Shown here: positions 5,394 through 25,333 of the stretch, one piece after another
Position numbering within the stretch: position 1 is the stretch's first letter
Layout: every line of letters begins with the position of its first letter
Notes under the pieces: generated by a model
Told to the model about the DNA's origin: nothing
The model's database searches: none
The model's input: only the letters and a program-made list of their open reading frames with translations
Assembly: GCA_944358625.1 (NCBI GenBank)
Contig: CALVRL010000001.1
Location: 1-56,342 of the forward strand
Direction of reading: 5' to 3'
Source of the DNA: an uncultured Bacilli bacterium
GTDB taxonomy: Bacteria; Bacillota_I; Bacilli_A; RF39; UBA660
DNA: 56,342 nucleotides
Made by a program: the position numbers and the translations under genes

Positions 5394-5505
5394 ATTCCGA
5401 AAAAATGACATTTTTACCACAAATTCGTAATAATTATATCACAAAAATCAAATAAAATCAATTTTATTCCGAAAAAATGACATTTTTACCACAAATTCGT
5501 AATAA
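5394..5505. repeat. 40-bp perfect direct repeat in two copies (5394-5433 and 5466-5505), 72-bp period, upstream of the ATPase gene
   Basis: ATTCCGAAAAAATGACATTTTTACCACAAATTCGTAATAA occurs twice identically. Each unit is bounded by an imperfect 8-bp inverted repeat (ATTCCGAA / TTCGTAAT). Confidence 0.9.
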
Positions 5506-5528
5506 AAAAGTGATTTATAAAAAACCAC

Positions 5529-11268: not shown

Positions 11269-12021
11269 ATGTTAATAGATACACACTGCCATATAAGTGA
11301 TGAAGATTATGATAATAAAGAAGAAATCATAAAACATATGGAAGATAATATAATGATAGTAAGTACTGCTAGTCCAAAAGATATAAAAGAAGTAATTAAC
11401 ATCTGTGAAAAATATAAAAATATCTATGGAACTATCGGTATTCATCCCGAATTTGCAGATACCTATAAAGAAGATGACATAAAACAAATAAAAAAATATA
11501 TAAAACATCCCAAAATAGTAGGTATCGGTGAAATAGGATTAGACTACCATTATACAAAAGAAAATAAAGAAAAACAAAAAGAACTATTTATAAAACAAAT
11601 AAAGATTGCAAATAAATACAATAAAACCATAGTCATACATAGTAGAGATGCAATAGAAGATACATATAATATAATCAAAGAATATAGCAAAGTAAAATGC
11701 AATATGCACTGTTTTAGTGGTAGCCTAGAAATGGCAGAAAGATTCATAAAGTTAGGTGTAAAACTCGGTATAGGAGGTGTTCTAACCTTTAAAAATGAAA
11801 AGAAATTAAAGGAAATAGTAACAGCTTTAGATATCCATAATTTTATTTTAGAAACCGATAGTCCATATCTAACCCCAGAGCCATTAAGAGGACATAAAAA
11901 TGAACCAATAAACGTAAAATATGTAGCTACCAAAATATCCCAATTAAAGGGTATTTCATACGCAAAAACCGTTGAAATTACTAGCCAAACGGCTATTAAT
12001 CAATTTGACTTAAAACTATAA
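11269..12021 (+). CDS. tatD: TatD-family metal-dependent DNase/hydrolase
   Basis: Motifs DTHCH, GEIGLDY, IHSRDA and ETDSPYL. ATG at 11269 lies 5 nt after GGTGA. metG-tatD synteny is conserved. Confidence 0.9.
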   Translation: MLIDTHCHISDEDYDNKEEIIKHMEDNIMIVSTASPKDIKEVINICEKYKNIYGTIGIHPEFADTYKEDDIKQIKKYIKHPKIVGIGEIGLDYHYTKENKEKQKELFIKQIKIANKYNKTIVIHSRDAIEDTYNIIKEYSKVKCNMHCFSGSLEMAERFIKLGVKLGIGGVLTFKNEKKLKEIVTALDIHNFILETDSPYLTPEPLRGHKNEPINVKYVATKISQLKGISYAKTVEITSQTAINQFDLKL

Positions 12022-12068
12022 ATATGGTATACTTTAAATGGTTTCAATTTTGAAATATGAGGTGAAAT

Positions 12069-12767
12069 ATGAATAAAAATCACCTGAAATATTTAGGAGT
12101 ATCTTTACTAATAAGTATCCTAACTATTACAGGTATATTAACATCTGGAAACCTAATTTCAGAAAAGAAATTTGAAGTAAAAAATTTAAACCAAACAAAA
12201 AATTCTATAGCTTTTACTAAAGTTATAGAGTATGATACAGTCGAAACTTATAACAATAAAATACCTACAGGAGTCACGATAACAAGAAAGAAGGGGCATA
12301 ACGGACTAGCATACGTTGATGAAAATAACAATGAAACCATCATTGAAAGTCCAAAAAATGCGAAAATCGAAATTGGAACTGGTGACGAAGCAAATTATGT
12401 AGGTAAAATGACAGGTTATGGGGCCGACTGCGTAGGGTGCACAGGAACATTAGCTTGTAAAACAAAAAATGGAAGCTATCACAATTTAATAAAAGATGGA
12501 ACTACATATAATGATGAAGAATATGGAAATGTTAAAATAATAGCTGCAGCTTTAGAAAAATTTCCATGTGGTACAATTATAAAAGTAGAAAATCCAAACT
12601 TAGGCACCTTTAATGCTATAGTATTAGATACAGGTGGAGCTATGAAAAGTGCTTGGGTAAATGGAATAGTTCATATGGATTTAGCCTATGTAACTGAAAC
12701 CGATCCAGCTATTCATTTATCCACAAGTTCTAATGTAAAATATAGTGTGCAAAGATGGGGATTTTAA
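12069..12767 (+). CDS. membrane-anchored 3D-domain (MltA-like double-psi barrel) cell-wall protein with G5-like region
   Basis: N-terminal TM segment. MTGYGADCVGCTG...DTGGAM is typical of YabE/YuiC-type 3D domains. Confidence 0.75.
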   Translation: MNKNHLKYLGVSLLISILTITGILTSGNLISEKKFEVKNLNQTKNSIAFTKVIEYDTVETYNNKIPTGVTITRKKGHNGLAYVDENNNETIIESPKNAKIEIGTGDEANYVGKMTGYGADCVGCTGTLACKTKNGSYHNLIKDGTTYNDEEYGNVKIIAAALEKFPCGTIIKVENPNLGTFNAIVLDTGGAMKSAWVNGIVHMDLAYVTETDPAIHLSTSSNVKYSVQRWGF

Positions 12768-12782
12768 ACCCCATTTTTTTCT
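12755..12782 (+). terminator. intrinsic terminator
   Basis: ATGGGG (12755-12760) pairs with CCCCAT (12769-12774), followed by a T7 run. It overlaps the stop codon. Confidence 0.6.
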
Positions 12783-12870
12783 TAATTTTTTCTTAACATT
12801 TATTAATAAATAATTAAAAAAACTTATAATTAAATTGATTTGAGTTAATATTGCCTTAGAGGTGATATTA

Positions 12871-13515
12871 ATGAAAAAATTCTTAACACTAACCGTTGGA
12901 ATATTACTTATACTATGGATATACTACTTACAAAAACCATATATAAATACAAAAATAAATCCCATCAGTGAAATAGACCCTTTAATTTTAGTAAATAGCA
13001 ATAATTCATTTCCAGAAAATGTCAAATTAAATTTAGTAAGCTTTCAAAAAAAACAAGTAGCTGATATAATATACAATGATTTAATAGATATGTATAATTC
13101 TGCTTTAGATGATAACATAACTTTAAAAATAAATAATGCGTATCGCACTAAAAAAGAGCAAACGAAAATGTTTAATGATAAAATGCAAAGTTATATAAAT
13201 GATGGTTATTCCAAAGAAAAAGCTTATAATCAAACCATACTAACTGTTCAAAAACCAGGTTATTCTGAACACGAAACAGGACTAGCCATTGACTTTAGTA
13301 ATGAAGGACATTATGATGAAAATGAAAAAATGTGGGAGTGGTTAAAAAATAATGCTTATAAATATGGTTTCATTTTAAGATATCCATATAATAAATATGA
13401 AATAACCAAAATTGATTATGAACCATGGCATTACCGTTATGTTGGTAAAAAAGCAGCTAAAGAAATAACTAATCAAAATTTAACTTTAGAAGAATATGTG
13501 GGAGGAAATCTATGA
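12871..13515 (+). CDS. VanY-type D-alanyl-D-alanine carboxypeptidase (peptidase M15B)
   Basis: SEHETGLAIDF and EPWHYRYVG Zn-ligand motifs, with an N-terminal TM anchor. ATG at 12871 lies 5 nt after GAGGTGA. Confidence 0.85.
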   Translation: MKKFLTLTVGILLILWIYYLQKPYINTKINPISEIDPLILVNSNNSFPENVKLNLVSFQKKQVADIIYNDLIDMYNSALDDNITLKINNAYRTKKEQTKMFNDKMQSYINDGYSKEKAYNQTILTVQKPGYSEHETGLAIDFSNEGHYDENEKMWEWLKNNAYKYGFILRYPYNKYEITKIDYEPWHYRYVGKKAAKEITNQNLTLEEYVGGNL

Positions 13516-14189
13516 ATATACTAGTTGTCGATGACGAAATAGAAATTGCCGATTTAATAGAATTATATTTAAAAAATGAAGGCTACAATGTTTATAAAAC
13601 CTATAGTAGTGAAAAAGCCTTAAAAATAATTGAAAAAAGAAACATTGACCTTGCCTTATTAGATATCATGATGCCAGGTATTAATGGATTTACATTATGC
13701 CAAACTATCAGAAAAAAGCACAATTTTCCAATTATTATGGTTACCGCTAAAATAACTGATGCCGACAAAATAAAAGGGTTAAATATAGGTGCAGATGATT
13801 ACATAACAAAACCATTTATGCCCCTAGAACTTATAGCTAGAGTAAAAGCCCAATTAAGAAGATATAAAAGCTATAATCAAAGTCAAAACAAAATATTAGT
13901 TATTAAAGATTTAACCTTAGATAAAGATAAACACGAATGTTTAAAAAACGGAAAAAAAATAAATTTAACTCCAACCGAGTTTTCTATTTTATATCTTCTA
14001 GCTAATAATAAAGATAAAGTAATAACAACAAAAAGCCTATTTGAAGAAGTATGGAAAGAACCTTATCTAACATCTAGCAGTGCAACTATCATGGTCCATA
14101 TTCGCCATTTAAGAGAAAAATTAGGAGAAAATGATAAAATAAAATATATAAATACCATATGGGGAGTAGGTTATCAAATTGAAAAATAA
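13512..14189 (+). CDS. OmpR/PhoB-family response regulator (VanR-like)
   Basis: Receiver domain DLALLDIMMPG and a winged-helix C-terminus IWGVGY. ATGA overlap with the upstream gene. Confidence 0.9.
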   Translation: MNILVVDDEIEIADLIELYLKNEGYNVYKTYSSEKALKIIEKRNIDLALLDIMMPGINGFTLCQTIRKKHNFPIIMVTAKITDADKIKGLNIGADDYITKPFMPLELIARVKAQLRRYKSYNQSQNKILVIKDLTLDKDKHECLKNGKKINLTPTEFSILYLLANNKDKVITTKSLFEEVWKEPYLTSSSATIMVHIRHLREKLGENDKIKYINTIWGVGYQIEK

Positions 14190-15255
14190 ATATGGAAAAG
14201 AATTAACCTTTAAATTCTTAAAAAAACTTTTTAAAGTAACAATTTTATATACGATTTGTTTTATCATATTTTATATAGTTGGACATCACTTATGTTCCAT
14301 GGTTACCTGGTATGCTGAAGACCCATTATATATCATATTAACAAATATCTTTTATCAGGGTTTTTTCTTACTTATAATATGGTTTATAGGTTTTATTATA
14401 ATATTTACTATAACCTTAATGAAATCATTATCCTATATCGATGCCCTAGTTTCTGAAAGTAAAAAATTAATCACTAAAACAGATGAAAAAATAAATCTTC
14501 CAGAAGATTTAAAAGAAGCTGAAGAAACTATGAATCAAATAAAAAAGGAAGCTTTATTTAATGAACGATTAGCTAAAGAAAACGAACAAAAGAAAAATGA
14601 TTTAATAGTCTATTTAGCTCATGATTTAAAAACTCCCCTAACCTCTATAATTGGTTATCTATCTTTATTAGACGAAGAAAAAAAATTAAGTTCTAAACAA
14701 AAAAACAAATTTATTAAAATAGCCTTAGAAAAATCTAATAAATTAGAAGAATTAATAAACGAACTATTTGAAATAACTAAATATAATTCCGAAACTTTAA
14801 CCATTAAAAAAGCAAAAATTAATTTAACCTTATTAATTAATCAAGTTATCGACGAATTTTATCCAATATTAAAAGAGCAAAATAAAAAAATAAACTTTTC
14901 TATAGAAAAAGATATTTTTATAGAGGCTGATTCTATTAAAATGGCTAGAGTTTTTAATAATCTAATTAAAAATGCGATTAATTATAGTTATGAAAACACT
15001 TCTATTAATATAGATATAAAGGAAGAAAATGACTTAATTATAAATATTTCTAATAAAAGTAAAACTTTAAAAAAAGAAGAGTTAGATAAAATATTTGATA
15101 AATTTTATAGAGTAGATTATTCAAGAAATACCAAATTAGGTGGTTCTGGTCTAGGACTAGCCATAGCCAAAGAAATAATCAAATTACATAATGGCAATAT
15201 AACCATTAAAAGTGAAAATGAAGAAACAACAATTACAGTAAAATTACCAAAATAA
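14179..15255 (+). CDS. sensor histidine kinase (VanS-like)
   Basis: Two N-terminal TM segments, H-box LAHDLKTPLTSIIGY, N-box NLIKNAINYS and G-box GGSGLGLAIAK. Confidence 0.9.
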   Translation: MKNKYGKELTFKFLKKLFKVTILYTICFIIFYIVGHHLCSMVTWYAEDPLYIILTNIFYQGFFLLIIWFIGFIIIFTITLMKSLSYIDALVSESKKLITKTDEKINLPEDLKEAEETMNQIKKEALFNERLAKENEQKKNDLIVYLAHDLKTPLTSIIGYLSLLDEEKKLSSKQKNKFIKIALEKSNKLEELINELFEITKYNSETLTIKKAKINLTLLINQVIDEFYPILKEQNKKINFSIEKDIFIEADSIKMARVFNNLIKNAINYSYENTSINIDIKEENDLIINISNKSKTLKKEELDKIFDKFYRVDYSRNTKLGGSGLGLAIAKEIIKLHNGNITIKSENEETTITVKLPK

Positions 15256-15341
15256 AGTGTTAATATAAACAACATTACAATTTTTATCATCAATAAAATA
15301 TATTATAAATTCTTCTTTATATATAAATCATAAAATAATAT

Positions 15342-16211
15342 TTATATTTGTGACTGTTTATTAATATTAAAATTTTCTACAATCAAATTTTTAAACTTTG
15401 TTGCATATATATTTATATTTTCTTTATTTAAAATCAAATAAATGTCAGTAATCGCCACATCTTCTCTTATAATTTCTACTTTCTTATCGTTTAAATAATT
15501 ATTTACAAATTCTATTGGAATAACCCCTACTCCAACATTTTGTAAAACTAGTTCATATATTTGATAATAGTTATCCACTATTATAGTATTTTTATTTTCA
15601 ATCTTAAGGTTATTTATAATTTCTATATCATTACAAATAATTTTATTATTTTTTAAATCATTATAGCTAAAAGTAGTATTAGAAAATATATTTTTAATAA
15701 TACAAAAATGTAATTGAGTTAATTTAGTAATTTCAAAATTATTTTTATCAATATTATCTTTATTTAAAGTAGTAATAATAAAATCTATTTTTTCCTCCAT
15801 CATTTCATTTAGTAGTAAATTCGTAGAATGCTCGTGAATGCCAACTAAAACATTGCTATATTTTAATGTTAACTTTTTAAGGGCTTTAATAATATATTGC
15901 TGAAGAAACGCATCATTAATACCAATAATTAATTTTTTTTGCTTACTTTGTTTTAAAGATAAATTTTTTTCCGCACTTAATATTTGTTCTATAGCGGGCT
16001 TAATTTGTTTATAAAGTTCTTTACCAGTTTTTGTTAGTTTAGTTCCCTTAGTATTTCTAATAAACAATGTTGTATTTAATTGTTTTTCTAAATTATTTAT
16101 ACTTTGAGTAACTGCTGGTTGGGAAATAAATAATTTTTTAGCAGCTTCAGTAATAGTTTTAGAATTAGCTACAACAAAAAATATTTTATATAATTCATAG
16201 TTAACATTCAT
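15342..16211 (-). CDS. LysR-family transcriptional regulator
   Basis: HTH ITEAAKKLFISQPAVTQSINNLEKQL, about 290 aa. ATG at 16211 lies 5 nt after GGAGGG; the track start at 16256 lacks an SD. Confidence 0.85.
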   Translation of the reverse strand: MNVNYELYKIFFVVANSKTITEAAKKLFISQPAVTQSINNLEKQLNTTLFIRNTKGTKLTKTGKELYKQIKPAIEQILSAEKNLSLKQSKQKKLIIGINDAFLQQYIIKALKKLTLKYSNVLVGIHEHSTNLLLNEMMEEKIDFIITTLNKDNIDKNNFEITKLTQLHFCIIKNIFSNTTFSYNDLKNNKIICNDIEIINNLKIENKNTIIVDNYYQIYELVLQNVGVGVIPIEFVNNYLNDKKVEIIREDVAITDIYLILNKENINIYATKFKNLIVENFNINKQSQI

Positions 16212-16368
16212 ATTTGCCCTCCAATAAATAACAAACTCCAAGCAAATATACACCATATACTACTCGGAGTTTTTTTAACAAAAAATAAAATTATATCTAA
16301 ATTATATAGCTTAAAGGCTTTAAAGTCAATGAATTATATACCTATTATCCCCTATTAGCCATAAGCAA

Positions 16369-16388
16369 TTCTTATAATAATATAAGAA
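16369..16388. promoter_or_regulatory. perfect 8-4-8 palindrome overlapping a TATAAT box; candidate operator in the LysR/rSAM divergent region
   Basis: TTCTTATA-ATAA-TATAAGAA. TATAAT at 16373-16378 lies about 75 bp upstream of the rSAM ATG. Confidence 0.3.
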
Positions 16389-16452
16389 AATAATATTTTA
16401 TTTTTTAAAATATTATATATAAAATAAAGTCTAATAAAGGAAGTGTTAGCAA

Positions 16453-17967
16453 ATGAAATTAGTAAATCCAAATGTTAAATATAAAAATTCATATTTAGAT
16501 TTAGTTAAAGCAGCTAAAAAAAATGGCGATATAAATGAAATGGGTAATGCTTATAAAGAAAACGAAACTTTTGAGCAAATGATCAAAAGATTAAAAGACC
16601 GTTCCAAAGGCAAAAATATTTCAAAATTAGAAGTTCCATCATCAATGAAATGGATAATTGAAAATAATGAAGTAGTTGGAACAATAGATTTAAGGCATTT
16701 ACTAAATAAAAGTTATTTTGAAAGATTAGGTCATGTTGCTTACTATATCCATCCCCAAAAAAGAAATAAAGGATATGCCTCTAAAGCATTAGCTTTAGCC
16801 ATTAAATGGTATAAAAAAATGCCAATCAATAAAATTTTAATTACCTGTTATAGTGATAACGAAGCTTCCAAAAAAGTTATTTTAAAAAACGGTGGAAAAT
16901 TTGAAAAAAGTGTTAAGGACAAAATGAGTAATAAAACAATTAATCGTTACTTAATAGATATAAGCGATACAACCTTTCCCCGAGTAGCTTGGTTTACAAC
17001 TAATAGAAGTTGTAATTGTAAATGTACATGGTGTTATGCCAACGACTATAAAAATAAAAATTTATCTATGAATTATGAAACAGCCAAACAATACATAAAA
17101 ATATTACCCAAAATCGGTATCAGAAAAGTTATTTTAATAGGTGGAGAGCCCACAATATATAAAGATATTAATAAAATAATTAAAGCTATTAATAAAGAAA
17201 ATATAAATATATCTATGGCTAGTAATGGAATAAAGTTTTCTGACTACAAATTTGCTGAATCACTTGTAAATGCTGGATTAAAATCAGTAAATATATCCTT
17301 AAAAGGAACTAGTGAATCAGAATATTTAACAAATACTAAAATATATGGTTTAGAAAAAACTATAAAAGGTTATAAAAAGCTAAAACAACTTGGAATAAAT
17401 GTAAGTTTATCATATGTTCTTTGTTCCAATGATAATAAAAAAATTGATGAATTATATGAATTAATGAAAGAAAATAACTTAGATAATATTTCTTTCCAAT
17501 TATATAAACCTTCTATAAATAGTAAAGATGAAACAAATATAAATGATCTAGTTTCAATATGTGAATATGTTTATAATAAATTTGAAAATAGTTCTTTTAA
17601 TTATTCAATTGAAATGTCATTACCATTATGCTTACTACCAAATAAACTCCTAAAAGACTTAACCGATAAAAAAAGAATTACCACATGCTGCCATATAGGT
17701 AAAGGCTCAGGCATAATCTTTGATACAAACTTTAATATCCTTCCTTGTAATCATTTTTTAGATATATCTTTAAATAAAGAAAAAATAATGCCTAATCAAA
17801 TTATTAAATTTTGGAATTCAACCACTGCACAAACATTCAGAAATAAAATTAATACATTTCCTTTAAAACATTGTAATAAATGTGACAAATGGCAAATTTG
17901 TGGAGGAGGATGCTCTTTAAGATGGTTAAATCCATCATTAAAAAAATACATGAATGAAAGGAGGTGA
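16453..17967 (+). CDS. fusion protein: N-terminal GNAT acetyltransferase domain plus radical SAM/SPASM peptide-maturase domain
   Basis: GNAT motif A HPQKRNKGYASKALA and SKKVILKNGGKFE. CX3CX2C is CNCKCTWC (nt 17011-17034). SPASM elements are CCHIGKG...LPC and CX2CX5CX3C = CNKCDKWQICGGGC (nt 17872-17913). Confidence 0.85.
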   Translation: MKLVNPNVKYKNSYLDLVKAAKKNGDINEMGNAYKENETFEQMIKRLKDRSKGKNISKLEVPSSMKWIIENNEVVGTIDLRHLLNKSYFERLGHVAYYIHPQKRNKGYASKALALAIKWYKKMPINKILITCYSDNEASKKVILKNGGKFEKSVKDKMSNKTINRYLIDISDTTFPRVAWFTTNRSCNCKCTWCYANDYKNKNLSMNYETAKQYIKILPKIGIRKVILIGGEPTIYKDINKIIKAINKENINISMASNGIKFSDYKFAESLVNAGLKSVNISLKGTSESEYLTNTKIYGLEKTIKGYKKLKQLGINVSLSYVLCSNDNKKIDELYELMKENNLDNISFQLYKPSINSKDETNINDLVSICEYVYNKFENSSFNYSIEMSLPLCLLPNKLLKDLTDKKRITTCCHIGKGSGIIFDTNFNILPCNHFLDISLNKEKIMPNQIIKFWNSTTAQTFRNKINTFPLKHCNKCDKWQICGGGCSLRWLNPSLKKYMNERR

Positions 17968-17971
17968 GAAA

Positions 17972-18118
17972 ATGGACGCTTTAACATTCATTAATCAAAA
18001 TTATAATGGAACTAATATCGAAGCCACTAAAACTACCGGTATAAAAAGCATTTATGCTAATAATTTAGACTGCAATTGCGTAGATAGTGACTGTTCTACT
18101 GAAACATACGAATATTAA
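17972..18118 (+). CDS. candidate RiPP precursor peptide (48 aa), absent from the ORF track
   Basis: MDALTFINQNYNGTNIEATKTTGIKSIYANNLDCNCVDSDCSTETYEY. The SD AGGAGGTGA embeds the rSAM stop codon and the ATG follows 4 nt later. A hairpin terminator lies downstream. Confidence 0.6.
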   Translation: MDALTFINQNYNGTNIEATKTTGIKSIYANNLDCNCVDSDCSTETYEY

Positions 18119-18143
18119 TAAAGTCCATTTAATTTTAAGGGTT

Positions 18144-18171
18144 AAGACTGTAATTATTTCAGTCTTTTTAT
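18144..18171 (+). terminator. intrinsic terminator after the small peptide ORF
   Basis: AAGACTG (18144-18150) pairs with CAGTCTT (18160-18166) around a 9-nt loop, followed by TTTTA. Confidence 0.5.
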
Positions 18172-18188
18172 TATATATTATAACCATT

Positions 18189-18246
18189 AAAGTAAAAACT
18201 GATAGAAATGTCAAAGTAAAAACTGATAAAAATGTCAAAGTAAAAG
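18189..18246. repeat. 24-bp tandem direct repeat, 2.4 copies
   Basis: AAAGTAAAAACTGATAGAAATGTC, then AAAGTAAAAACTGATAAAAATGTC, then AAAGTAAAAG. There is one mismatch between the full copies. Confidence 0.85.
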
Positions 18247-18430
18247 TTTATAATTTTATAGTTTTTGTAATTTACATTTACATATATTTACAAAACAATT
18301 TTATAAGATTTTTAAGCATCCTTTTTAACATTAATCTCTATGTTAAAATAAAATCAAAGGAGGTCTTTTTATCTATGTAAATTCTAACGACTATTTAATA
18401 TACCAAAATCAAAATGGAGTTTATAGTTTA

Positions 18431-18808
18431 TTGTTAGGGGGGAATGGACTATCTGCACATAATTTAATAGATTTAATGAATAAATTAAAGGTAGAAAATA
18501 AAATTCCAATTACAGCGGAAATTATACCTACTATATTACCTTCAGCGCCAACACCAGAAATGAAAATGCAAAGAATAGATGAAATCACAACTCAAAGCGG
18601 AGATTTAATCATTACAACAATGGATGGGCAAAATTATATTTTTAAAGACAGTTATGGACACACAGTAGATTTAGTAATTTCCGGCCAATTTGAGCCAGAA
18701 AATATAGATTATGAGGATATAAGAAGACCTAATATATTTGAGGAAGATACTAATATGTTTGAAGATGGTATTAATTTAGATAATTCACACCATCACAAAA
18801 CCAGATAG
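18431..18808 (+). CDS. hypothetical protein (125 aa from TTG; frame open back to 18329)
   Basis: ORF with a protein-like, acidic C-terminal half and no recognised family. The start is uncertain: TTG at 18431 lies 11 nt after GGAG, while a strong SD at 18356-18364 is followed in-frame only by ATC at 18371. Confidence 0.5.
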   Translation: MLGGNGLSAHNLIDLMNKLKVENKIPITAEIIPTILPSAPTPEMKMQRIDEITTQSGDLIITTMDGQNYIFKDSYGHTVDLVISGQFEPENIDYEDIRRPNIFEEDTNMFEDGINLDNSHHHKTR

Positions 18809-18857
18809 CTAGCAAAAACTGGCTTTTTTTAGTATAATGAAAAAGGAGGTAAGACAT

Positions 18858-19697
18858 ATGGAATATTCTCCTAATAAAATGAAAGAAGAATTAACTAAGG
18901 AAAATTTTAATTTTAAAAAGAAATTTGGTCAAAATTTTATTGTGGATGAAAATATTATTAACAATATAATAAATAAATCGAATATTGATAAAGAAACATT
19001 AGTAATTGAAATAGGCCCAGGAGCAGGTTCATTAACCAGCGAATTAGGAAAAGTAGCTAAAAATGTTATAGCCTACGAGATAGATAAAACGCTAAAACCA
19101 ATATTAGAAAAAAACATTCAAAGTAATACAGAAATAATATATGAAGATTTCTTAAAAAGAAATATTTCAGAAGATTTAAAAAAATATAACTATAAAAAAA
19201 TATATGTAGTAGCTAACCTCCCCTATTATATTACAACACCAATAATAATCAAATTAATAGAAGATAAATTAAACATAGATAAAATAGTAGTAATGGTTCA
19301 AAAAGAAGTTGGAGATAGATTCAAAGCAAAACCAAACACCAAAGAATATAATTCTCTATCGATATTTTTAAATTATTACTATACTGTGGAAAAACTATTA
19401 GATGTTAGTAAAAATGTTTTCATACCAAAACCAAATGTCGATAGTATAGTCATATCACTTACTAAAAAAGAAGATAAAATAAAAGTTGATAATGAAAAAT
19501 TATTTTTTAAATTAGTAAGAGATTCATTCAAACAAAAAAGAAAAACATTAAAAAATAATCTAAAAGGATATAACTTAAAAAAAATAGAAGAAATTTTAAA
19601 AAAACACAATTTAGATTTAACAATAAGGGCCGAGGCCTTACCCATAGAAATATTTGCCGAAATAGCAAATAATTTAAAAGAAGGAGACGAAAAATGA
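18858..19697 (+). CDS. rsmA: 16S rRNA (adenine1518/1519-N6)-dimethyltransferase
   Basis: FGQNFI, EIGPGAGSLT and NLPYYITTPI motifs. ATG at 18858 follows AAGGAGGT. Confidence 0.9.
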   Translation: MEYSPNKMKEELTKENFNFKKKFGQNFIVDENIINNIINKSNIDKETLVIEIGPGAGSLTSELGKVAKNVIAYEIDKTLKPILEKNIQSNTEIIYEDFLKRNISEDLKKYNYKKIYVVANLPYYITTPIIIKLIEDKLNIDKIVVMVQKEVGDRFKAKPNTKEYNSLSIFLNYYYTVEKLLDVSKNVFIPKPNVDSIVISLTKKEDKIKVDNEKLFFKLVRDSFKQKRKTLKNNLKGYNLKKIEEILKKHNLDLTIRAEALPIEIFAEIANNLKEGDEK

Positions 19698-20029
19698 ATA
19701 TAAAAAAAGTAAATATAGCAGTAACAATACCTCCCCAATATTTAGAACAATTTAGAAAAAGCATATTAGAAGAAGGAGCGGGAATAATAGAAAATTATAC
19801 ATTTTGTTCAGTTAGTACAAAATGTACAGGAACATTTATTGCAAATGAACATGCCAACCCATATATCGGAGTAAAGGGAAAACTAATATATGTAGAAGAA
19901 GAAAAATTAGAAGTAATATGTGATATAAAAAACGTTAAAAAAGTTATAAAAAAAATAAAAGAAATTCATCCATATGAAACACCAGTTATTGATATCATAC
20001 CATTACTTGATGAAGAAGATTTTAAATGA
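19694..20029 (+). CDS. small PII-like/Nif3-insert-like protein (COG3323-type)
   Basis: 111 aa with HPYETPVIDIIPL near the C-terminus, as in YqfO/Nif3 cap-domain stand-alone proteins. ATGA overlap with rsmA. Confidence 0.6.
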   Translation: MNIKKVNIAVTIPPQYLEQFRKSILEEGAGIIENYTFCSVSTKCTGTFIANEHANPYIGVKGKLIYVEEEKLEVICDIKNVKKVIKKIKEIHPYETPVIDIIPLLDEEDFK

Positions 20030-20039
20030 AAGAATAAAT

Positions 20040-21245
20040 ATGGAAAATAAAATAAATAAATTTTTAAAAGTATATCCATGGTATTATGGTTTATCATGTT
20101 GGCTTATTTTTTATGATATTTTAAATACCATATATCTTACAGCAGTAAAAAATTTAACCGCCTCAGAATTTACATTACTAACTTCAATTGGTTTATTAAC
20201 AAGTATTATTCTTTTATCCCCTACTCTAAAAATAATAAAAAAAATAGGCAATACTATTTCACTTAGATTAGGAAATTTTATGTTTATTATAGCAACTATA
20301 CTTCTTATTTTCTGTAATTCATTTATAGGACTTTCTCTAGGTCAAATTTTATATGAAATTTCTTTCCTATTTAAGACAATGTTGTTAGTTGAATTAAGAA
20401 AAAATCTTATTTATATAAACAAAGAAAATAAATTTATAGAATATGGAAACAAAGCCTCTATGAAATATTATGTAGTAGCGCTCATCTCAGGTTTAATCGC
20501 AGGTCCTATATTTAATATAAATCACTATTTACCAATGTATATTTCACTTATTATAACTTTTATTTGTTTTTATCTATCATTTTATCTTTTTGATGTAACA
20601 GAATATGATAATACCTATAAAATAGAAAAAAACGCAAATATTAAAATAAAAAAAATTTGGTCAATTTTATCCATAATATTACTTATTACATTTGGATTAG
20701 AAACAGGAATAATTGATATAGGAATAGATCAAGCAAAACTTTTTATTCAATACAGTTTAACAAATAAAATAAATATTAAAATAATTGCCATAATTATAAG
20801 TATAGTAGTAGCATTATCTAATATACCAGCCATATTAGGTACTAAATTTTTTCCCAAAATATATGATAAAATAAAAGACAAATCAGGTTATTTATTAAGT
20901 TTCCTATTAATTTTATCATTCACTTTATTGTTAATAGGAGGTTTTATAAATGCCCCGCTTATTATAAAAATCATATTAATGGCTATAGGATACATCTTAA
21001 TAGTCATGTTAAAAGGTCCATACACAGTATATTTAGAAGATTTAATATTAAAAAATGGAAAAGGTTTAGAACAAGATTTAACTATGTATTTTACTTTAGC
21101 TAGAAATCTAGGAGGAGCTATCATAAGTGCGTTAGCATCCATAATATTAATTTATCATTCGATAACTCATGTAATATGGTTATTACTATTAATAAGTATA
21201 ATTGAAACATATTTATTTTATAAAGTTAATAAATTACTTAAATAA
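20040..21245 (+). CDS. polytopic membrane protein, MFS-like transporter
   Basis: About 11-12 hydrophobic helices. The start is ambiguous among 19974, 20010 and 20040; I chose 20040 because it does not overlap the upstream gene. Confidence 0.6.
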   Translation: MENKINKFLKVYPWYYGLSCWLIFYDILNTIYLTAVKNLTASEFTLLTSIGLLTSIILLSPTLKIIKKIGNTISLRLGNFMFIIATILLIFCNSFIGLSLGQILYEISFLFKTMLLVELRKNLIYINKENKFIEYGNKASMKYYVVALISGLIAGPIFNINHYLPMYISLIITFICFYLSFYLFDVTEYDNTYKIEKNANIKIKKIWSILSIILLITFGLETGIIDIGIDQAKLFIQYSLTNKINIKIIAIIISIVVALSNIPAILGTKFFPKIYDKIKDKSGYLLSFLLILSFTLLLIGGFINAPLIIKIILMAIGYILIVMLKGPYTVYLEDLILKNGKGLEQDLTMYFTLARNLGGAIISALASIILIYHSITHVIWLLLLISIIETYLFYKVNKLLK

Positions 21246-21319
21246 TTACCCAAAAGGTAGTTTTTTTCTTTTATTTTAAAATAAAAAATGTTACAATATA
21301 TCCCGAAAGAGGTGTTTCC

Positions 21320-21985
21320 ATGATTAATAAAAAATGGGATGAATTATTAAAAGATGAATTTAAAAAACCATATTTTAAAAAATTAGGTATATTTGTTAAA
21401 AATGAATATGGAAAAAAGATCGTATATCCAGAATATAAAAATATATTTAATGCTTTAAGATTCACAGATTATGACGAAGTAAAAGTAGTAATTTTAGGTC
21501 AAGACCCATATCACGGACCCAAAGAAGCACATGGACTATCATTTTCAGTAGAAGAAGGAGTAAAAAGACCCCCATCATTAGATAATATATTCAAAGAATT
21601 AAAAAACGATTTAGGAGTAACTAGAACAAATAACAACCTAACAGACTGGGCTAAACAAGGAGTATTCTTACTAAACTCAATCATGACAGTTGTCAAAGAT
21701 ACTCCCCTATCCCACAAAGACAAAGGCTGGGAAACATTCACCGATAACCTAATAAAATTATTAAACAAAAGAGAAAAACCAATAGTCTTTATATTATGGG
21801 GTAGCTATGCCAGAAGTAAAAAAGTATTAATTACAAATCCAAATCATTATATTGTGGAAAGTCCTCATCCTTCTCCCCTATCCGCCCATAGAGGTTTCTT
21901 TGGAAGTAAACCATTTTCTAAAACCAACAACTTTTTAGTATCCAAAGGAATTAAACCAATAAAATGGGGTGATGAAGATGAATGA
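21320..21985 (+). CDS. ung: uracil-DNA glycosylase (family 1)
   Basis: VVILGQDPYHG, GVFLLN and HPSPLSA motifs. SD AGAGGTG. Confidence 0.92.
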   Translation: MINKKWDELLKDEFKKPYFKKLGIFVKNEYGKKIVYPEYKNIFNALRFTDYDEVKVVILGQDPYHGPKEAHGLSFSVEEGVKRPPSLDNIFKELKNDLGVTRTNNNLTDWAKQGVFLLNSIMTVVKDTPLSHKDKGWETFTDNLIKLLNKREKPIVFILWGSYARSKKVLITNPNHYIVESPHPSPLSAHRGFFGSKPFSKTNNFLVSKGIKPIKWGDEDE

Positions 21986-23303
21986 TATTTTAGAAAAATT
22001 AAAAAACTTACCAAATGATATTTCCATAGTTATAGCCGTATCAGGTGGTCCAGATTCCATGGCTTTATTAAATCTCTTAAATGTTATAAAAAAAGAAAAA
22101 AACATAAAAATAATATGTGCTCATGTCAATCATAATTTAAGAAAAGAAAGTAAAGCAGAAGCCAAAATGGTAAAAGATTACTGCAAACAAAAAAGTATCA
22201 TCTATGAATATATGGAAATAAAAGAATACAAAGGAAACACCGAAAACTATGCCAGAGAAAAAAGATACGAATTTTTTGAAAATTTACTAAAAAAATATAA
22301 TTCAAAATATTTATTCACCGCCCATCACGGAGATGATCTAATAGAAACAGTCATTATGCGTTTAATCAGAAGTTCATCACTAAAAGGTTATAGCGCTTTT
22401 AGTGAAATAACAGAAAAAAAAGATTACAAAATATATAGACCATTAATCACAAAAACCAAAGAAGAAATATTTAACTATGTAAAAAATAATAATCTCCCCT
22501 ACGCTATAGACAAAACAAACGATAGTGATTTTTTCACAAGAAATAGAATAAGAAAATACATCTTACCAAGACTAAAAGAAGAAAACAAAAACGTACATTT
22601 AAAATTTTTAGAATTTAGTAAAACATTAAATGAAACCGAAAAATATTTAAAAAAACAAACCGAAAAAGCCTTATCAAAAATATATATAGCTAAAAAAATA
22701 GATATAAATTCATTTAAAAAAGAAGATTTATTAGTGCAAAAAAGAATAATACACCATATTTTAAATGAAACATATAAAGAAAACATCACAAAAATAAAAG
22801 ATGTACATGTCAATAACATTTTATCCACAGTAAAAAATAGTACCTCAAACAGTAAAATAAATCTGCCAGATAATAAAATATTTATAAAATCATATAATAA
22901 TGCATGGATAGAAGAAAACAAAGAAACAAAAAATTATGATATCATTTTAAATGATATTGTAGAGTTACCAAACGGTTATATAATAGAAATAATTAAAGAA
23001 ACAGAAAATAATTCAAATTATGTTACAAAAATAAACACCCAAGAAATAAACATGCCAATTCATATAAGAACAAGAAAAGAAGGTGACAAACTAACACTAA
23101 AAGGTTTAAACAAAGAAAAAAAACTAAAAGATATATTCATTGATGAAAAAGTGCCTATAGAAAAAAGAAAAACATGGCCAGTAGTAACCGATGATAAAGA
23201 TAATATAATTTGGCTTCCAGGCTTAAAAAAAACTAAATTTGATAGAGCAAAAACAAAAAACTATGATATAATAATTAGGTATCGAAAGAAAGGAAGTTTG
23301 TAA
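21978..23303 (+). CDS. tilS: tRNA(Ile)-lysidine synthase
   Basis: PP-loop AVSGGPDSMAL and TAHHGDD. ATG at 21978 lies 5 nt after GGGGTGA. Confidence 0.9.
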   Translation: MNDILEKLKNLPNDISIVIAVSGGPDSMALLNLLNVIKKEKNIKIICAHVNHNLRKESKAEAKMVKDYCKQKSIIYEYMEIKEYKGNTENYAREKRYEFFENLLKKYNSKYLFTAHHGDDLIETVIMRLIRSSSLKGYSAFSEITEKKDYKIYRPLITKTKEEIFNYVKNNNLPYAIDKTNDSDFFTRNRIRKYILPRLKEENKNVHLKFLEFSKTLNETEKYLKKQTEKALSKIYIAKKIDINSFKKEDLLVQKRIIHHILNETYKENITKIKDVHVNNILSTVKNSTSNSKINLPDNKIFIKSYNNAWIEENKETKNYDIILNDIVELPNGYIIEIIKETENNSNYVTKINTQEINMPIHIRTRKEGDKLTLKGLNKEKKLKDIFIDEKVPIEKRKTWPVVTDDKDNIIWLPGLKKTKFDRAKTKNYDIIIRYRKKGSL

Positions 23304-25333
23304 TGAATAAAAAAGTTGTTAAAAGAGGATTATTTCCTTATTTATTTCTAGCAGTTTTCTTATTTTGTATGTATTTATTAGTAGGTACAATGAATACAAA
23401 AGTAAATGAACTAACATATGGTGAGTTCATGGAAGCTGTCGAAAATAAAGAAGTAAAAGAAATAAATGTCACACCAAATAGTCAAAGTACAGTTTATACA
23501 ATTAGAGGTAAATTAAAAGACTATGCTGAAAATGAAACATTCTCATTTAATATGCCTTTAACAAACGAGACTATGGTAAAACTATTAGACGCCGAAGACC
23601 AAGCCGGGTTTAAATTAACAACATCAACAGACCCAAGTTCTTCACCATTCTTATTATTTTTAATAAACATATTACCAATGGTAATAATAGTAGGAGTAGG
23701 ATTCTACTTCATAACAAAACAAATGGGTTCAGGAAGTAAATCAATGGATTTCGGTAGATCTAAAGCCAGATTAAGCGGTGGAGAGACAAAAGTAACATTC
23801 AAAGATGTTGCTGGACTAGAAGAAGAAAAAGAAGAAATGTCAGAACTAATCGATTTCTTAAAAAGCCCTAAAAAATTCCAAAAAATGGGAGCTAGAATTC
23901 CAAAAGGAGTTTTATTAGTAGGTCCTCCAGGAACAGGTAAAACCTTACTAGCAAAAGCCGTAGCCGGAGAAGCAAACGTACCATTTTATTTCATAAGTGG
24001 TTCAGAGTTTGTCGAATTATTCGTAGGTGTAGGAGCATCAAGAGTAAGAGACATGTTCAAACAAGCCAAACAAAGTGCCCCTTGTCTAGTATTCATAGAC
24101 GAAATAGACGCTGTAGGTAGACAAAGAGGAGCAGGTTTAGGCGGTGGACATGATGAAAGAGAGCAAACATTAAACCAATTATTAACCGAAATGGATGGAT
24201 TTGGAGCAAACGAAGGAATAATAATTATAGCTGCAACTAATAGACCAGACGTTTTAGATCCAGCCCTTTTAAGACCAGGAAGATTTGATAGACAAGTTAC
24301 AGTTAATTATCCAGACGCTAAAGGAAGAGAAGAAATACTAGCAGTTCATGCTAAAGGAAAAACATTTGCGCCAAACATAACTTTAAAAAATATTGCCAAA
24401 CGTACAGTAGGTTTTAGTGGAGCAGATCTAGAAAACTTACTTAACGAAGCAGCTTTACTAACAGTTAGAAGAAATAAAAACGCTATTACAATGGCTGAAA
24501 TAGACGAAGCACATGATAGAGTATTAATGGGACCAGCCAAGAAAAGTCACAAATATACAGAAAAAGAAAAACGTACAGTTGCTTATCACGAAGCCGGTCA
24601 TGCCGTAGTTGGTATAAAATTAGATGGTGCTAACGATGTTCAAAAAATAACAATAATACCAAGAGGAAGAGCAGGAGGATACAACCTAATGCTTCCAAAA
24701 GAAGAGACATATTTAAGAACAAAGAAAGAATTATTAGATTCAATAAGTGGTTTTCTAGCAGGACGTGTTGCCGAAGAAATAATGTTCAATGAAGTAACAA
24801 CAGGAGCTCAAAACGATTTTGAACAAGCAACTAAAATAGCTAGAGCTATGGTTACCGAATACGGTATGAGTGATTTAGGACCAATTCAATTTGAAGAAGA
24901 GCAATCAAGTGTATTTTTAGGAAGAGATTACAACAAAGCTCAAAATTTCTCACACGAAGTTGCTAAACAAATAGATGAAGAAGTTAGAAAAATAATCACA
25001 AATCAATATCAAGTAACGAAAAAGATAATCAAAGAAAATTTAGATTTATTAAAATTAATAGCCGAAACCTTACTTGAATATGAAACAATTACTAAAGAAC
25101 AAATCGATTATTTAGTTAAAAATGGTAAAATGCCAGAAGATGATATCAAAGCTCACGAAGAATTCAAAAAAGAAATAAAAGAAGAAACAAAAGAAGATAT
25201 CCAAGTAGCTAAATTAGAAGATTTAACTTTAGAAGATTTAAAAGATATAGCTAAAGAAGAAGGAATAAAAGACTATTACAAATTAAATAAAAAAGAATTA
25301 CTTGATAAATTAAAAGAAAAGCAAGACAAATAG
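23303..25333 (+). CDS. ftsH: ATP-dependent zinc metalloprotease FtsH
   Basis: Walker [12 protein letters not shown] region, Zn motif HEAGHA, and two N-terminal TM segments. tilS-ftsH synteny is conserved. Confidence 0.97.

What the first reader, a model, noticed from the sequence alone, without database searches (positions are those of the whole stretch)
16453..17967. GNAT acetyltransferase fused to a radical SAM/SPASM maturase: unusual RiPP-enzyme architecture
Seen in the sequence: a single 504-aa ORF carries two distinct domains.
- Residues ~60-170 look like a GNAT fold (motif A HPQKRNKGYASKALA; ASKKVILKNGGKFE).
- From residue ~185 there is a radical SAM core, CX3CX2C = CNCKCTWC at nt 17011-17034.
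- The C-terminus is a SPASM domain, with CCHIGKG...LPC and CX2CX5CX3C = CNKCDKWQICGGGC at nt 17872-17913.

Established knowledge: SPASM enzymes such as AlbA, SkfB, ThnB, CteB, PapB, PqqE and MftC install crosslinks in ribosomal peptides. They usually carry or recruit a PqqD-like RRE at the N-terminal position.

Inference: here a GNAT sits where the RRE normally is. One polypeptide would then both crosslink and acetylate a peptide, or acetylate for self-protection. From memory I know of no characterised maturase with this fusion. No sulfatase, quinohemoprotein or PQQ genes are nearby that would suggest a non-RiPP role.
Basis: partly seen in the sequence, partly recalled or inferred. Interest (0 to 1): 0.85.

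Follow-up and report, generated by a model that had tools for sequence, protein, structure and literature searches.

The report
GNAT-fused radical SAM peptide maturase cassette
A real two-gene cassette from an uncultured gut bacterium encodes a short cysteine/aspartate-rich peptide and the iron-sulfur enzyme that probably cross-links it; the enzyme carries an acetyltransferase at its front end that is an optional add-on, not a replacement for the usual peptide-docking domain.

Summary
ORF 16453-17967 (504 aa) is a GNAT acetyltransferase (res 1-170) fused to a radical SAM core and a 7-Cys SPASM-type C-terminus, at the stated coordinates.

A 48-aa peptide gene (17972-18118) follows 4 nt later, behind a strong ribosome-binding site. 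A peptide of this family lies next to every one of 43 related loci. It has a conserved leader and a Cys/Asp-rich core (LDCxCVDxDC), and dN/dS is 0.07-0.18. This is an undescribed RiPP-type maturase/precursor family in gut Bacilli, Clostridia and CPR bacteria.

The RRE-replacement idea is not supported:
- Most family members are ~335-aa enzymes that start about 10 residues before CX3CX2C, so the family has no RRE.
- N-terminal GNAT fusions form one clade of gut Bacilli.
- The same GNAT also occurs as a separate downstream gene.
- It repeatedly survives alone after the rSAM and peptide are lost.
- It is also fused to an unrelated unknown domain.

Best reading: the rSAM/SPASM half cross-links the core, probably through Cys-Asp thioethers. 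The GNAT is a separable accessory acetyltransferase acting on the peptide product for tailoring or self-protection. The chemistry is untested. This is a new variant of a known kind, of moderate interest.

The parts
16453..17967 (+). Bifunctional ORF (504 aa): GNAT acetyltransferase fused to a radical SAM/SPASM peptide maturase
   Evidence: ORF listed. Pfam GNAT and Radical_SAM hits. About 27 clusters share the same architecture at 49-94% identity. AF2 model has pLDDT 93.2 and pTM 0.89.
16453..16962 (+). GNAT domain (res 1-170), RimL/RimJ/SpeG/MccE-like (Acetyltransf_3). Motif A RNKGYA lies at nt 16762-16779.
   Evidence: The domain boundary is defined by GNAT-only alleles that end at ...RYLIDI.
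16984..17502 (+). Radical SAM core (res 178-350), with CX3CX2C at nt 17011-17034 and the GGEP motif (I229-P233)
   Evidence: Pfam PF04055, E 1.7e-25. Invariant C187/C191/C194 and IGGEP. Secondary structure from the model.
17623..17925 (+). SPASM-type auxiliary Fe-S region (res 391-491). Invariant C393, C413, C432, and CX2CX5CX3C at nt 17872-17913.
   Evidence: alignment to SuiB; the Pfam SPASM model is sub-threshold at 14.9 bits.
17956..17967 (+). Shine-Dalgarno sequence GAAAGGAGGTGA for the peptide gene, overlapping the end of the enzyme ORF
   Evidence: Read directly from the sequence.
17972..18118 (+). Precursor peptide gene (48 aa): MDALTFINQNYNGTNIEATKTTGIKSIYANN-LDCNCVDSDCSTETYEY. Leader is about res 1-31; the Cys/Asp-rich core is about res 32-48 (nt 18065-18115).
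   Evidence: A peptide of this family is adjacent in 43/43 related loci. The peptide profile finds 91 unnamed clusters. dN/dS is 0.07-0.18, and core dN is about 0-0.02.
18144..18166 (+). Weak hairpin followed by a T-run; a possible operon terminator
   Evidence: Fold energy -7 kcal/mol, z-score -0.69. Not called by the terminator scan. Low confidence.
15342..16256 (-). Divergently transcribed LysR-family regulator; a possible local regulator, conserved only in close relatives
   Evidence: Pfam HTH_1 and LysR_substrate. Present in syntenic L001. Absent from other family loci and deleted in L061.

Best explanation
This is a minimal, self-contained RiPP-type cassette. One promoter region drives a bifunctional enzyme gene and, 4 nt after its stop, a translationally well-signalled 48-aa precursor gene.

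Shown:
- The enzyme's C-terminal two-thirds belongs to a large family of compact (~335 aa), RRE-less radical SAM/SPASM proteins.
- Every member of that family examined is paired with a precursor of one family. The precursors share a conserved leader (L..L(L/I)..Y.GT.I..(AP).A.G[ILV]) and a core of about 20% Cys and 20% Asp, built on D-C-x-C-(x)n-D-C.

Inferred mechanism:
- The leader docks directly on the rSAM/SPASM body.
- The SAM cluster generates a 5'-deoxyadenosyl radical that abstracts an H atom from a core residue.
- A Cys thiolate, probably held at an auxiliary cluster, captures the carbon radical to form intramolecular thioether rings.
- These are most likely Cys-S to Asp (or Asn) side-chain carbon links, as in ranthipeptides. 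C36-x3-D40 is a CX3D unit.

The GNAT:
- The N-terminal GNAT is a catalytically intact-looking acetyl-CoA-dependent acetyltransferase.
- It became fused in one clade of gut Bacilli.
- It is not needed for substrate recognition by the rSAM half.
- I propose that it acetylates the peptide product or a processed form of it. The only candidate amine is an alpha-amino group, because GNAT-associated cores contain no Lys.
- Self-protection (MccE-like) and tailoring are about equally likely.

Sub-confidences: RiPP-type maturase plus precursor pair 0.9; thioether chemistry 0.5; GNAT acts on the peptide or its product 0.55.
For: Domain architecture and motifs.

Precursor gene:
- A precursor is adjacent in all 43 intact family loci, 41 downstream and 2 upstream, across at least 5 unrelated genomic contexts.
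- There is bipartite conservation of leader and core.
- Purifying selection is strongest on the core.
- The peptide family has 91 clusters, all unnamed.

No RRE: standalone enzymes start at about AWLTTN, there is no PqqD hit, and the model leaves no space for one.

The GNAT-rSAM link is recurrent:
- a monophyletic N-terminal fusion clade;
- rSAM-GNAT-peptide order in L032;
- rSAM-peptide-GNAT order in L041, whose rSAM sits in a distant clade;
- a different RimL-like GNAT after the peptide in L031.

Other support:
- GNAT motif A and motif B residues are conserved.
- The GNAT resembles the peptide N-alpha-acetyltransferases RimL and RimJ and the immunity enzyme MccE.
- PapB forms Cys-Asp beta-thioethers at CX3D motifs and tolerates X0-X6 spacing (PMC9413430).
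- Candidate leader peptidases (HExxH) directly follow the peptide in some family loci.
Against: - No chemistry was tested.
- No NCBIfam maturase model is passed: PapB 55 bits vs 340, StsB 61 vs 625, anSME 66 vs 349. The crosslink type is therefore an analogy from core composition only.
- CPR members have CxCxC cores with few Asp, so Asp may not be the universal acceptor.
- The window's cassette has no protease or exporter.
- GNAT-only alleles at 74-91% identity are at least as diverse as fused ones and are interleaved with them in the GNAT tree. A near-identical strain keeps the GNAT but lacks the rSAM and peptide. The same GNAT is also fused to an unrelated domain. The GNAT therefore clearly has a life independent of this peptide.
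- GNAT-associated cores have no Lys.
Confidence: 0.55

Rival explanations
1. The GNAT is purely a self-immunity or resistance module, like the MccE C-terminal domain. It neutralises the mature or processed peptide by N-acetylation and is not part of the product's structure. Non-producer strains keep it as an orphan immunity gene.
For: - GNAT-only alleles are interleaved with nearly every fused lineage.
- L061 is a near-identical strain with the GNAT kept and the rSAM and peptide deleted.
- L065 keeps the GNAT with a '...KTV-stop-LTTN' remnant of the fusion.
- P0260 keeps an intact-looking GNAT next to a decayed rSAM domain.
- MccE, ArsN and phosphinothricin acetyltransferases are among the closest folds.
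- Most producers in the wider family lack any GNAT, so it is not needed to make the product.
Against: - An acetyl-CoA enzyme can protect only against an intracellular target or a re-imported toxin, and no uptake or toxicity data exist.
- The cassette has no exporter, so it is unclear that the peptide is a weapon at all.
- The pattern fits a GNAT with a general cellular substrate equally well.
Confidence: 0.3
2. The fusion is functionally incidental. A common general-purpose GNAT of these Bacilli happened to lie upstream of an rSAM-peptide cassette and was joined to it. The two halves work on unrelated substrates.
For: - Standalone orthologues are abundant.
- The same GNAT is fused at the same boundary to an unrelated ~185-aa domain.
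- There are triple-GNAT proteins and several GNAT paralogues in these genomes.
Against: - The fusion has been maintained across 49-94% identity and at least 5 genomic contexts.
- GNATs, including a different subfamily, have become associated independently in other gene orders.
- The high pTM (0.89) of the two-domain model suggests a fixed interface.
Confidence: 0.12
3. The GNAT fold acts as a surrogate leader-binding (RRE-like) domain, possibly non-catalytic.
For: It occupies the N-terminal position where PapB-, SuiB- and AlbA-type enzymes carry an RRE. P0260 (GNAT plus a dead rSAM domain) shows the two domains can stay together without radical chemistry.
Against: - About 140 of the top 150 family representatives have no N-terminal domain, and the relatives examined in genomic context still sit next to the same kind of precursor.
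- The GNAT can be encoded as a separate gene after the rSAM.
- The acetyl-CoA motif is conserved.
- GNAT-only genes persist without any peptide.
Confidence: 0.05
4. This is not a RiPP system. The rSAM acts on a small molecule or cofactor (MoaA-, NirJ- or AhbD-like), and the small ORF is not its substrate.
For: The top NCBIfam scores are to MoaA, NirJ and AhbC/D models.
Against: - All those scores are far below the cut-offs (105 bits vs 325).
- No cofactor pathway genes are nearby.
- The only gene universally linked to the enzyme is the peptide, and it is under strong purifying selection.
Confidence: 0.03

Closest known systems
PapB/PapA (freyrasin) and other ranthipeptide rSAM-SPASM maturases
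   Same: An rSAM with a SPASM domain acts on a leader-bearing precursor whose core is rich in Cys and Asp. PapB links Cys-S to Asp C-beta at CX3D motifs and tolerates X0-X6 spacing (PMC9413430). The core here contains C36-x3-D40 and C34-x3-D38.
   Different: - PapB has an N-terminal RRE; this family has none.
- The NCBIfam PapB model scores 55 bits against a cut-off of 340.
- The precursor families are unrelated.
- PapB has no GNAT.
- The crosslink here is unproven.
SCIFF peptide with its maturase (CteB/Tte1186 type)
   Same: From my own knowledge: a two-gene cassette of a ~45-aa Cys-rich peptide plus a SPASM maturase, widespread in Clostridia, without a dedicated protease or exporter and of unknown biological role. 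The window's cassette is equally minimal.
   Different: The peptides here match no NCBIfam or Pfam precursor model. The enzyme lacks the RRE that CteB has. The core motif and leader differ.
SuiB/StrB (streptide Lys-Trp cyclase)
   Same: It is the closest solved RiPP maturase by sequence (5v1q, E 3.8e-11) and among the top fold matches. The SPASM cysteine motifs align residue by residue.
   Different: Identity is 17-20%. SuiB has an RRE. It forms a C-C Lys-Trp link at KxxxW, a motif absent here. The KxxxW maturase model scores 60 bits against a cut-off of 500.
MccE of the microcin C pathway
   Same: One polypeptide joins a biosynthetic domain to a RimL-like GNAT that acetylates the toxic product for self-immunity (established knowledge). 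The MccE acetyltransferase is among the best fold and sequence matches of this GNAT (3r95; TM 0.68).
   Different: In MccE the GNAT is C-terminal, the partner domain is not an rSAM, and the substrate is an aminoacyl-nucleotide. Sequence identity is about 17%.
GNAT tailoring enzymes of RiPP pathways (selidamide PhaN/KspN; from memory also microviridin MdnD and goadsporin GodH)
   Same: These are GNAT-superfamily enzymes encoded in RiPP clusters that acylate the peptide (PMC8784127).
   Different: They are free-standing proteins acting on Lys/Orn side chains or on the N-terminus. Here the GNAT is fused to the maturase, the cores lack Lys, and the GNAT belongs to the Acetyltransf_3 RimL/SpeG-like group.
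Elp3
   Same: A radical SAM domain and a GNAT domain in one polypeptide (from my own knowledge).
   Different: The domain order is reversed (rSAM N-terminal, GNAT C-terminal). Elp3 has no SPASM domain, its substrate is tRNA, and it has no linked peptide. It is not related beyond the superfamily level.

Membership tests
Radical SAM superfamily | CX3CX2C cluster motif plus a significant match to PF04055 | tested here: met
   C187/C191/C194 are invariant. PF04055 scores 90.5 bits against a cut-off of 29.5. The GGEP SAM-binding motif is invariant.
SPASM subfamily of radical SAM enzymes | C-terminal 7-Cys motif including CX2CX5CX3C, for two auxiliary [4Fe-4S] clusters | tested here: met
   C393, C413, C432, C474, C477, C483 and C487 are invariant. 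They align to the SuiB SPASM motifs. The fold matches SuiB and anSME.
SPASM subfamily of radical SAM enzymes | Match to the Pfam SPASM model PF13186 above its gathering score | tested here: not met
   No hit at E<=1 on the full protein. The isolated C-terminus scores 14.9 bits against a cut-off of 21.5. This is a divergent SPASM.
GNAT superfamily | Pfam GNAT model above cut-off, motif A (R/Q-x-x-G-x-G/A), and the GNAT fold | tested here: met
   PF13302 scores 50.1 bits against 25.4. R104-N-K-G107-Y-A109 is nearly invariant. TM-scores to SpeG, MccE and RimL are 0.6-0.7.
GNAT superfamily | Acetyl-CoA-dependent acyl transfer activity | not testable with these tools
   Requires an enzyme assay.
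RiPP maturase/precursor pair | A small precursor gene genetically linked to the enzyme, with a conserved leader and a core region | tested here: met
   43/43 loci have an adjacent peptide. Leader and core are both conserved. dN/dS is 0.07-0.18.
RiPP maturase/precursor pair | RiPP recognition element (PqqD-like wHTH), in the enzyme or as a partner protein | tested here: not met
   No PqqD or RRE family hit. The model and alignment leave no unassigned domain. There is no conserved small partner gene.
RiPP maturase/precursor pair | Demonstrated post-translational modification of the peptide | not testable with these tools
   Needs co-expression and HR-MS/MS.
Ranthipeptide maturases (PapB family) | Passes NCBIfam NF047865; forms Cys-S to non-alpha-carbon thioethers | tested here: not met
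   Scores 55.3 bits against a cut-off of 340. The chemistry is not testable. Only the Cys/Asp-rich, CX3D-containing core resembles PapA.
Sactipeptide maturases (StsB/AlbA/SkfB type) | Passes the curated family model; forms Cys-S to C-alpha links | tested here: not met
   The StsB model scores 61 bits against a cut-off of 625. SkfB matches only over the rSAM core.
Anaerobic sulfatase-maturating enzymes | Passes TIGR03942; substrate has a C/S-x-P/A-x-R sulfatase motif; a sulfatase gene is nearby | tested here: not met
   Scores 65.6 bits against a cut-off of 349. The peptide has no such motif and no sulfatase gene is nearby.
MoaA (GTP 3',8-cyclase) | Passes the TIGR02666/02668 cut-offs; lies in a molybdopterin gene context | tested here: not met
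   This is the best NCBIfam score, but 105.6 bits against a cut-off of 325, covering the N-terminal core only. No moa genes are present.

The most novel reading that the evidence does not exclude
The GNAT is the stable, portable element of a polymorphic locus, and the rSAM-peptide pair is a frequently lost add-on.
- Under this reading the GNAT is a protective acetyltransferase against a Cys/Asp-crosslinked peptide made by sibling strains.
- It is kept as orphan immunity after producers lose the cassette.
- It is re-used with other C-terminal partner domains.
- This would be a new kind of RiPP producer/immunity polymorphism in genome-reduced, uncultured gut Bacilli, carried out by a single bifunctional protein.
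- A further possibility is that the peptide is not exported at all, but is an intracellular crosslinked Cys/Asp metal- or redox-active peptide, shared with CPR bacteria.
Probability: 0.2. Interest if true: 0.75.

Novelty: new variant of a known kind. Interest (0 to 1): 0.55.

Why it matters
It defines an undescribed RiPP-type family, from three lines of evidence:
- No curated precursor model matches the peptides and no curated enzyme model reaches its cut-off.
- Every database entry for the peptides is 'hypothetical'.
- I found no paper describing it.

Why the family is useful to study:
- It consists of a very compact, RRE-less rSAM/SPASM enzyme and a Cys/Asp-rich peptide.
- It occurs in organisms that cannot yet be cultured: gut Bacilli of the CAG:594/CAG:710 type, Clostridia and CPR bacteria. 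One precursor was seen on 786 contigs.
- An RRE-less, ~330-aa maturase with a short leader is an attractive minimal system for studying leader recognition and for peptide-stapling tools of the PapB type.

The GNAT fusion is a natural experiment on how accessory tailoring or immunity functions are recruited to RiPP maturases. Its repeated survival after the maturase is lost gives a testable hypothesis about orphan immunity in the gut microbiome.

Tried and rejected
- **Hidden RRE.** No PqqD or RRE hit in Pfam or NCBIfam, and no unassigned segment in the model. Rejected.
- **anSME-, MoaA-, NirJ- or AhbD-like roles.** All curated models score far below their cut-offs, and no matching pathway genes are nearby. 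Rejected.
- **Known precursor family.** Seven family peptides gave no NCBIfam hit at E<=5. The window peptide gave no Pfam or NCBIfam hit.
- **Conserved protease, exporter or third gene.** All-vs-all clustering of neighbours in 41 loci found none that is universal. HExxH peptidases and a TraG-D_C-like membrane protein occur only in some clades, and none is in the window.
- **Riboswitch or other RNA element around the operon.** No Rfam hit at E<=0.1.
- **Intrinsic terminator.** There is only a weak hairpin (-7 kcal/mol, z -0.69), and the scanner does not call it.
- **UGA=Trp recoding as the explanation for the in-frame TGA at Trp180 in L011/L028.** Neighbouring genes are intact under code 11, and L065 has TAA at the same site followed by deletion. 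I read it as gene splitting or decay. Low-level readthrough is not excluded.
- **An alternative genetic code for the fragmented L054 gene.** The pieces lie in three different frames, so it is a frameshifted pseudogene.
- **Literature.** Six full-text searches combining radical SAM, SPASM, GNAT, acetyltransferase, RiPP and ranthipeptide found no description of this fusion or peptide family. The library is incomplete, so this is absence of evidence only.
- **Identity of the alternative ~185-aa partner domain of the GNAT.** No Pfam, NCBIfam or PDB match.
- **A correction to my own notes.** The one search hit 5v1q is SuiB, not CteB.
Full report
**1. Observation**

The window is ~25% GC.
- ORF 16453-17967 (+) encodes 504 aa.
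- Pfam finds Acetyltransf_3 at res 47-148 (50.1 bits, cut-off 25.4), Acetyltransf_1, and Radical_SAM at res 185-337 (90.5 bits, cut-off 29.5).
CX3CX2C is C187/C191/C194 at nt 17011-17034, and CX2CX5CX3C is C474-C487 at nt 17872-17913.
- In a 31-sequence alignment spanning 30-94% identity, C187, C191, C194, C393, C413, C432, C474, C477, C483 and C487 are invariant, as is IGGEP.
- The Pfam SPASM model itself is sub-threshold: no hit on the full protein and 14.9 bits against 21.5 on the C-terminus alone.
- The SPASM cysteines nevertheless align residue by residue to SuiB (5v1q, E 3.8e-11).
- Several NCBIfam SPASM families align over the full length but below their cut-offs.
- An AF2 model (pLDDT 93.2, pTM 0.89) has BlsE, SuiB, anSME and MoaA as its best fold matches.
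- The GNAT domain modelled alone (pLDDT 95) matches SpeG, MccE, RimL, ArsN and phosphinothricin acetyltransferases at TM 0.6-0.7. The profile-sequence search finds the same set.
- Motif A (R104-x-x-G107-x-A109) and the DN..S..VI.KNGG motif are conserved.

**2. The peptide gene is real and is the only universally linked gene**

- The enzyme's TGA stop is at 17965-17967, and an ATG follows at 17972. GAAAGGAGGTGA precedes that ATG. The 48-aa reading is therefore the right one, not the 54-aa ORF from 17954.
- Homologous enzymes were recovered from metagenome contigs and from a scan of 185,579 species genomes.
- In all 43 loci with an intact family rSAM gene, a small ORF of the same family lies beside it. 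It is directly downstream in 41 loci and directly upstream in L033 and L036.
- The surrounding genes are unrelated from locus to locus: metG...ksgA, UvrD/NUDIX, teichoic-acid glycosyltransferases, relA/spoT, rnf/dnaG, transposases and ribosomal genes.
- The peptides share a leader (L..L(L/I)..Y.GT.I..AP.A.G[ILV]; in the fusion clade M[DNTS]AL..[IV]......[ST].[IL].....G[IL]).
- They share a core built on D-C-x-C-(x)n-D-C. Their C-terminal halves are 19.6% Cys and 19.2% Asp.
- Variants include threefold CHCSSDDC repeats, CDCDCDCECDCDCD runs, SEYCQ repeats, and CQGQCPCKCxCQCDC in CPR bacteria.
- Among the five closest relatives, dN/dS for the ORF is 0.07-0.18. The core has dN of about 0-0.02 while synonymous sites are near saturation.
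- A profile of the peptides finds 91 clusters of 39-81 aa. None has a Pfam domain, and every name given is 'unknown' or 'hypothetical'. One cluster was seen on 786 contigs.
- No NCBIfam or Pfam precursor model matches.

**3. What the enzyme family is**

- A full-database phmmer search returned 191 representatives at E<=1e-30.
- About 140 of the best 150 are 330-360 aa proteins aligned to residues ~177-495 only. The typical family member is therefore a bare rSAM-SPASM protein starting about 10 residues before CX3CX2C.
- No RRE is present in the fused or unfused forms. There is no PqqD hit, and the model passes from GNAT strand 161-169 to rSAM strand 178-182.
- No curated maturase, anSME or MoaA model is passed.
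- Taxonomically, the fusions come from uncultured gut Bacilli and 'Mollicutes' MAGs, including Clostridium sp. CAG:594 and CAG:710.
- Unfused members come from Clostridia, Lachnospiraceae and CPR/Patescibacteria.
- Some loci carry an HExxH peptidase immediately after the peptide (L034, L037, L039; a different HExxH protein in CPR loci L048 and L052). These are plausible leader peptidases. The window has none.

**4. How the GNAT relates to the cassette**

(a) N-terminal fusions form a single clade in a tree of rSAM domains. One nested member, L014, has lost the GNAT.

(b) The link has arisen in other arrangements too:
- L032 has rSAM, then a GNAT of the same subfamily, then the peptide.
- L041 sits in a distant Clostridia rSAM clade and has rSAM, peptide, then GNAT. 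Its core (..DCNCIDCGDDADCSTPW) is almost the same as those of the fusion loci L002 and L022.
- L031 has a different RimL-like GNAT after the peptide.

(c) The GNAT also exists without the cassette:
- There are 22 or more clusters of 170-178-aa GNAT-only proteins at 73-91% identity to the window's domain.
- In a GNAT tree, nearly every fused lineage has a GNAT-only sister.
- L061 is a near-identical strain (93-98.5% nt identity in the flanks). Window 16964-18857 (rSAM domain, peptide and a 125-aa ORF) is missing there, and the GNAT ends at the domain boundary.
- In L065 the GNAT ends ...VPKTV-TAA-LTTN and then runs into intergenic DNA. That is a visible scar of a former fusion.
- In L011 and L028 an in-frame TGA replaces the invariant Trp180 codon.
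- P0260 has an intact-looking GNAT fused to a full-length rSAM-like domain that has lost CX3CX2C, GGEP and several SPASM cysteines.

(d) The same GNAT (71-80% identity) is fused at the same boundary to an unrelated ~185-aa domain with no detectable family.

Taken together:
- The GNAT is optional for the RiPP family.
- It is recurrently recruited to the family.
- It is the most persistent component once recruited.

**5. Mechanism (inferred)**

- The leader binds the rSAM/SPASM body directly.
- Reductive SAM cleavage at the C187/C191/C194 cluster yields the 5'-deoxyadenosyl radical, which abstracts an H atom from a core residue.
- A Cys sulfur then captures the carbon radical, assisted by the auxiliary clusters. 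This is the general scheme established for sacti- and ranthipeptide synthases.
- The invariant core positions are D33, C34, C36 and C41, with D40 nearly invariant.
- C36-x3-D40 and C34-x3-D38 are CX3D units. PapB links Cys to Asp C-beta at CX3D and tolerates spacings of 0-6 residues (PMC9413430).
- I therefore favour Cys-Asp (or Asn) thioethers, at about 0.5. CPR cores with few Asp argue that the acceptor may differ across the family.
- For the GNAT, GNAT-associated cores contain no Lys. An alpha-amino group, either of the precursor or of the core after leader removal, is the only obvious nucleophile. This is the chemistry of RimL, RimJ and MccE.
- All fusion-clade cores share DCS[TV] followed by an aromatic or acidic tail. 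This may mark the GNAT-dependent subclass, but it could equally be phylogenetic signal.
- Retention of the GNAT after the rSAM and peptide are lost fits an immunity or resistance role (orphan immunity; MccE is a precedent for a biosynthetic enzyme fused to an immunity GNAT). It also fits a general cellular role, and fits a dedicated tailoring step less well.
- The repeated independent recruitment argues against a purely incidental fusion.

**6. Comparison and novelty**

- By function, it looks like a ranthipeptide- or SCIFF-type minimal cassette.
- By membership, it fails every curated maturase model tested, lacks an RRE, and has an unrelated precursor.
- RiPP clusters with free-standing GNATs are known, for example the selidamides (PMC8784127).
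- A GNAT fused to an rSAM/SPASM maturase did not turn up in six literature searches.
- Verdict: a new variant of a known kind. It is a real, undescribed RiPP-type family, and the window holds a member of its GNAT-fused subclade.
- Interest is moderate. Uncharacterised rSAM-RiPP families are numerous. This one stands out for its compact RRE-less enzyme, its presence in uncultured gut and CPR lineages, and the producer/GNAT-only polymorphism.

Noticed in passing
L011 4986-4988 (also L028); L065 3131-3145: The invariant Trp180 codon at the GNAT/rSAM junction is an in-frame TGA in L011 and L028 (...KTV-TGA-LTTNMNCN). In L065 it is TAA, followed by an LTTN remnant and then intergenic DNA. This is either splitting and decay of the fusion exactly at the domain boundary, or possibly leaky UGA readthrough that yields both products.
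   Followed up: partly
L061 versus window 12001-24000: A strain with 93-98.5% nt identity lacks four stretches: window 13088-14595 (VanY C-terminus, response regulator, kinase N-terminus), the LysR gene, 16964-18857 (rSAM domain, peptide, 125-aa ORF) and ~19679-21223. The GNAT region is only 89% identical, which hints at allele exchange at this locus.
   Followed up: partly
P0050/P0057/P0060/P0065; loci L063 2142-3224 and L064 1633-2715: The same GNAT (71-80% identity) is fused at the same boundary to an unrelated ~185-aa C-terminal domain (YVYHGS...LYLYPNRP...). That domain has no Pfam, NCBIfam or PDB match. The gene lies in a UMPH-1/ASCH neighbourhood. In syntenic L062 the GNAT and a 152-aa ORF are separate.
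   Followed up: partly
P0260 (519 aa; no locus available): A GNAT with an intact motif A is fused to a full-length rSAM/SPASM-like domain that has lost CX3CX2C, GGEP and PCNH. It is a possible pseudo-enzyme or a decay intermediate.
   Followed up: no
L054 4000-5900: A GNAT-rSAM gene is broken into pieces in three reading frames, so it is a pseudogene. The downstream precursor is still intact (MSALELIKKLYQGTEISSEFTKRIKNNSSANMLDCNCIDCGSDANCSTID).
   Followed up: yes
L047 3962-6494: Two tandem paralogous rSAM/SPASM genes flank one precursor with SEYCQ repeats (5056-5307).
   Followed up: no
L034 ~5277-5951, L037 ~5294-5941, L039 5194-5845; L048 1707-2084, L052 5263-5676: Small HExxH metallopeptidase-like genes (Peptidase_MA_2-like in Clostridia, a different family in CPR) lie immediately after the precursor. 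They are candidate leader peptidases and are absent from the window.
   Followed up: partly
L016, L038, L042-L045 (e.g. L016 7222-9552, minus strand): A ~776-aa membrane protein with a TraG-D_C-like domain is conserved next to cassettes of the clade whose precursors carry repeated CHCSSDDC-type cores. It may be an export component for that clade.
   Followed up: no
window 18189-18245: A 24-nt tandem repeat (AAAGTAAAAACTGATAAAAATGTC, 2.4 copies, 96% match) lies just downstream of the cassette, in the intergenic region before an unconserved 125-aa ORF (18431-18808).
   Followed up: partly
window 12862-15255; L052 1061-3684: A VanY-like carboxypeptidase plus a response regulator/histidine kinase pair lies just upstream of the LysR gene and the cassette, and is partly co-deleted in L061. 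A kinase/regulator pair also lies directly upstream of the rSAM gene in CPR locus L052. A regulatory or immunity link is possible but untested.
   Followed up: no
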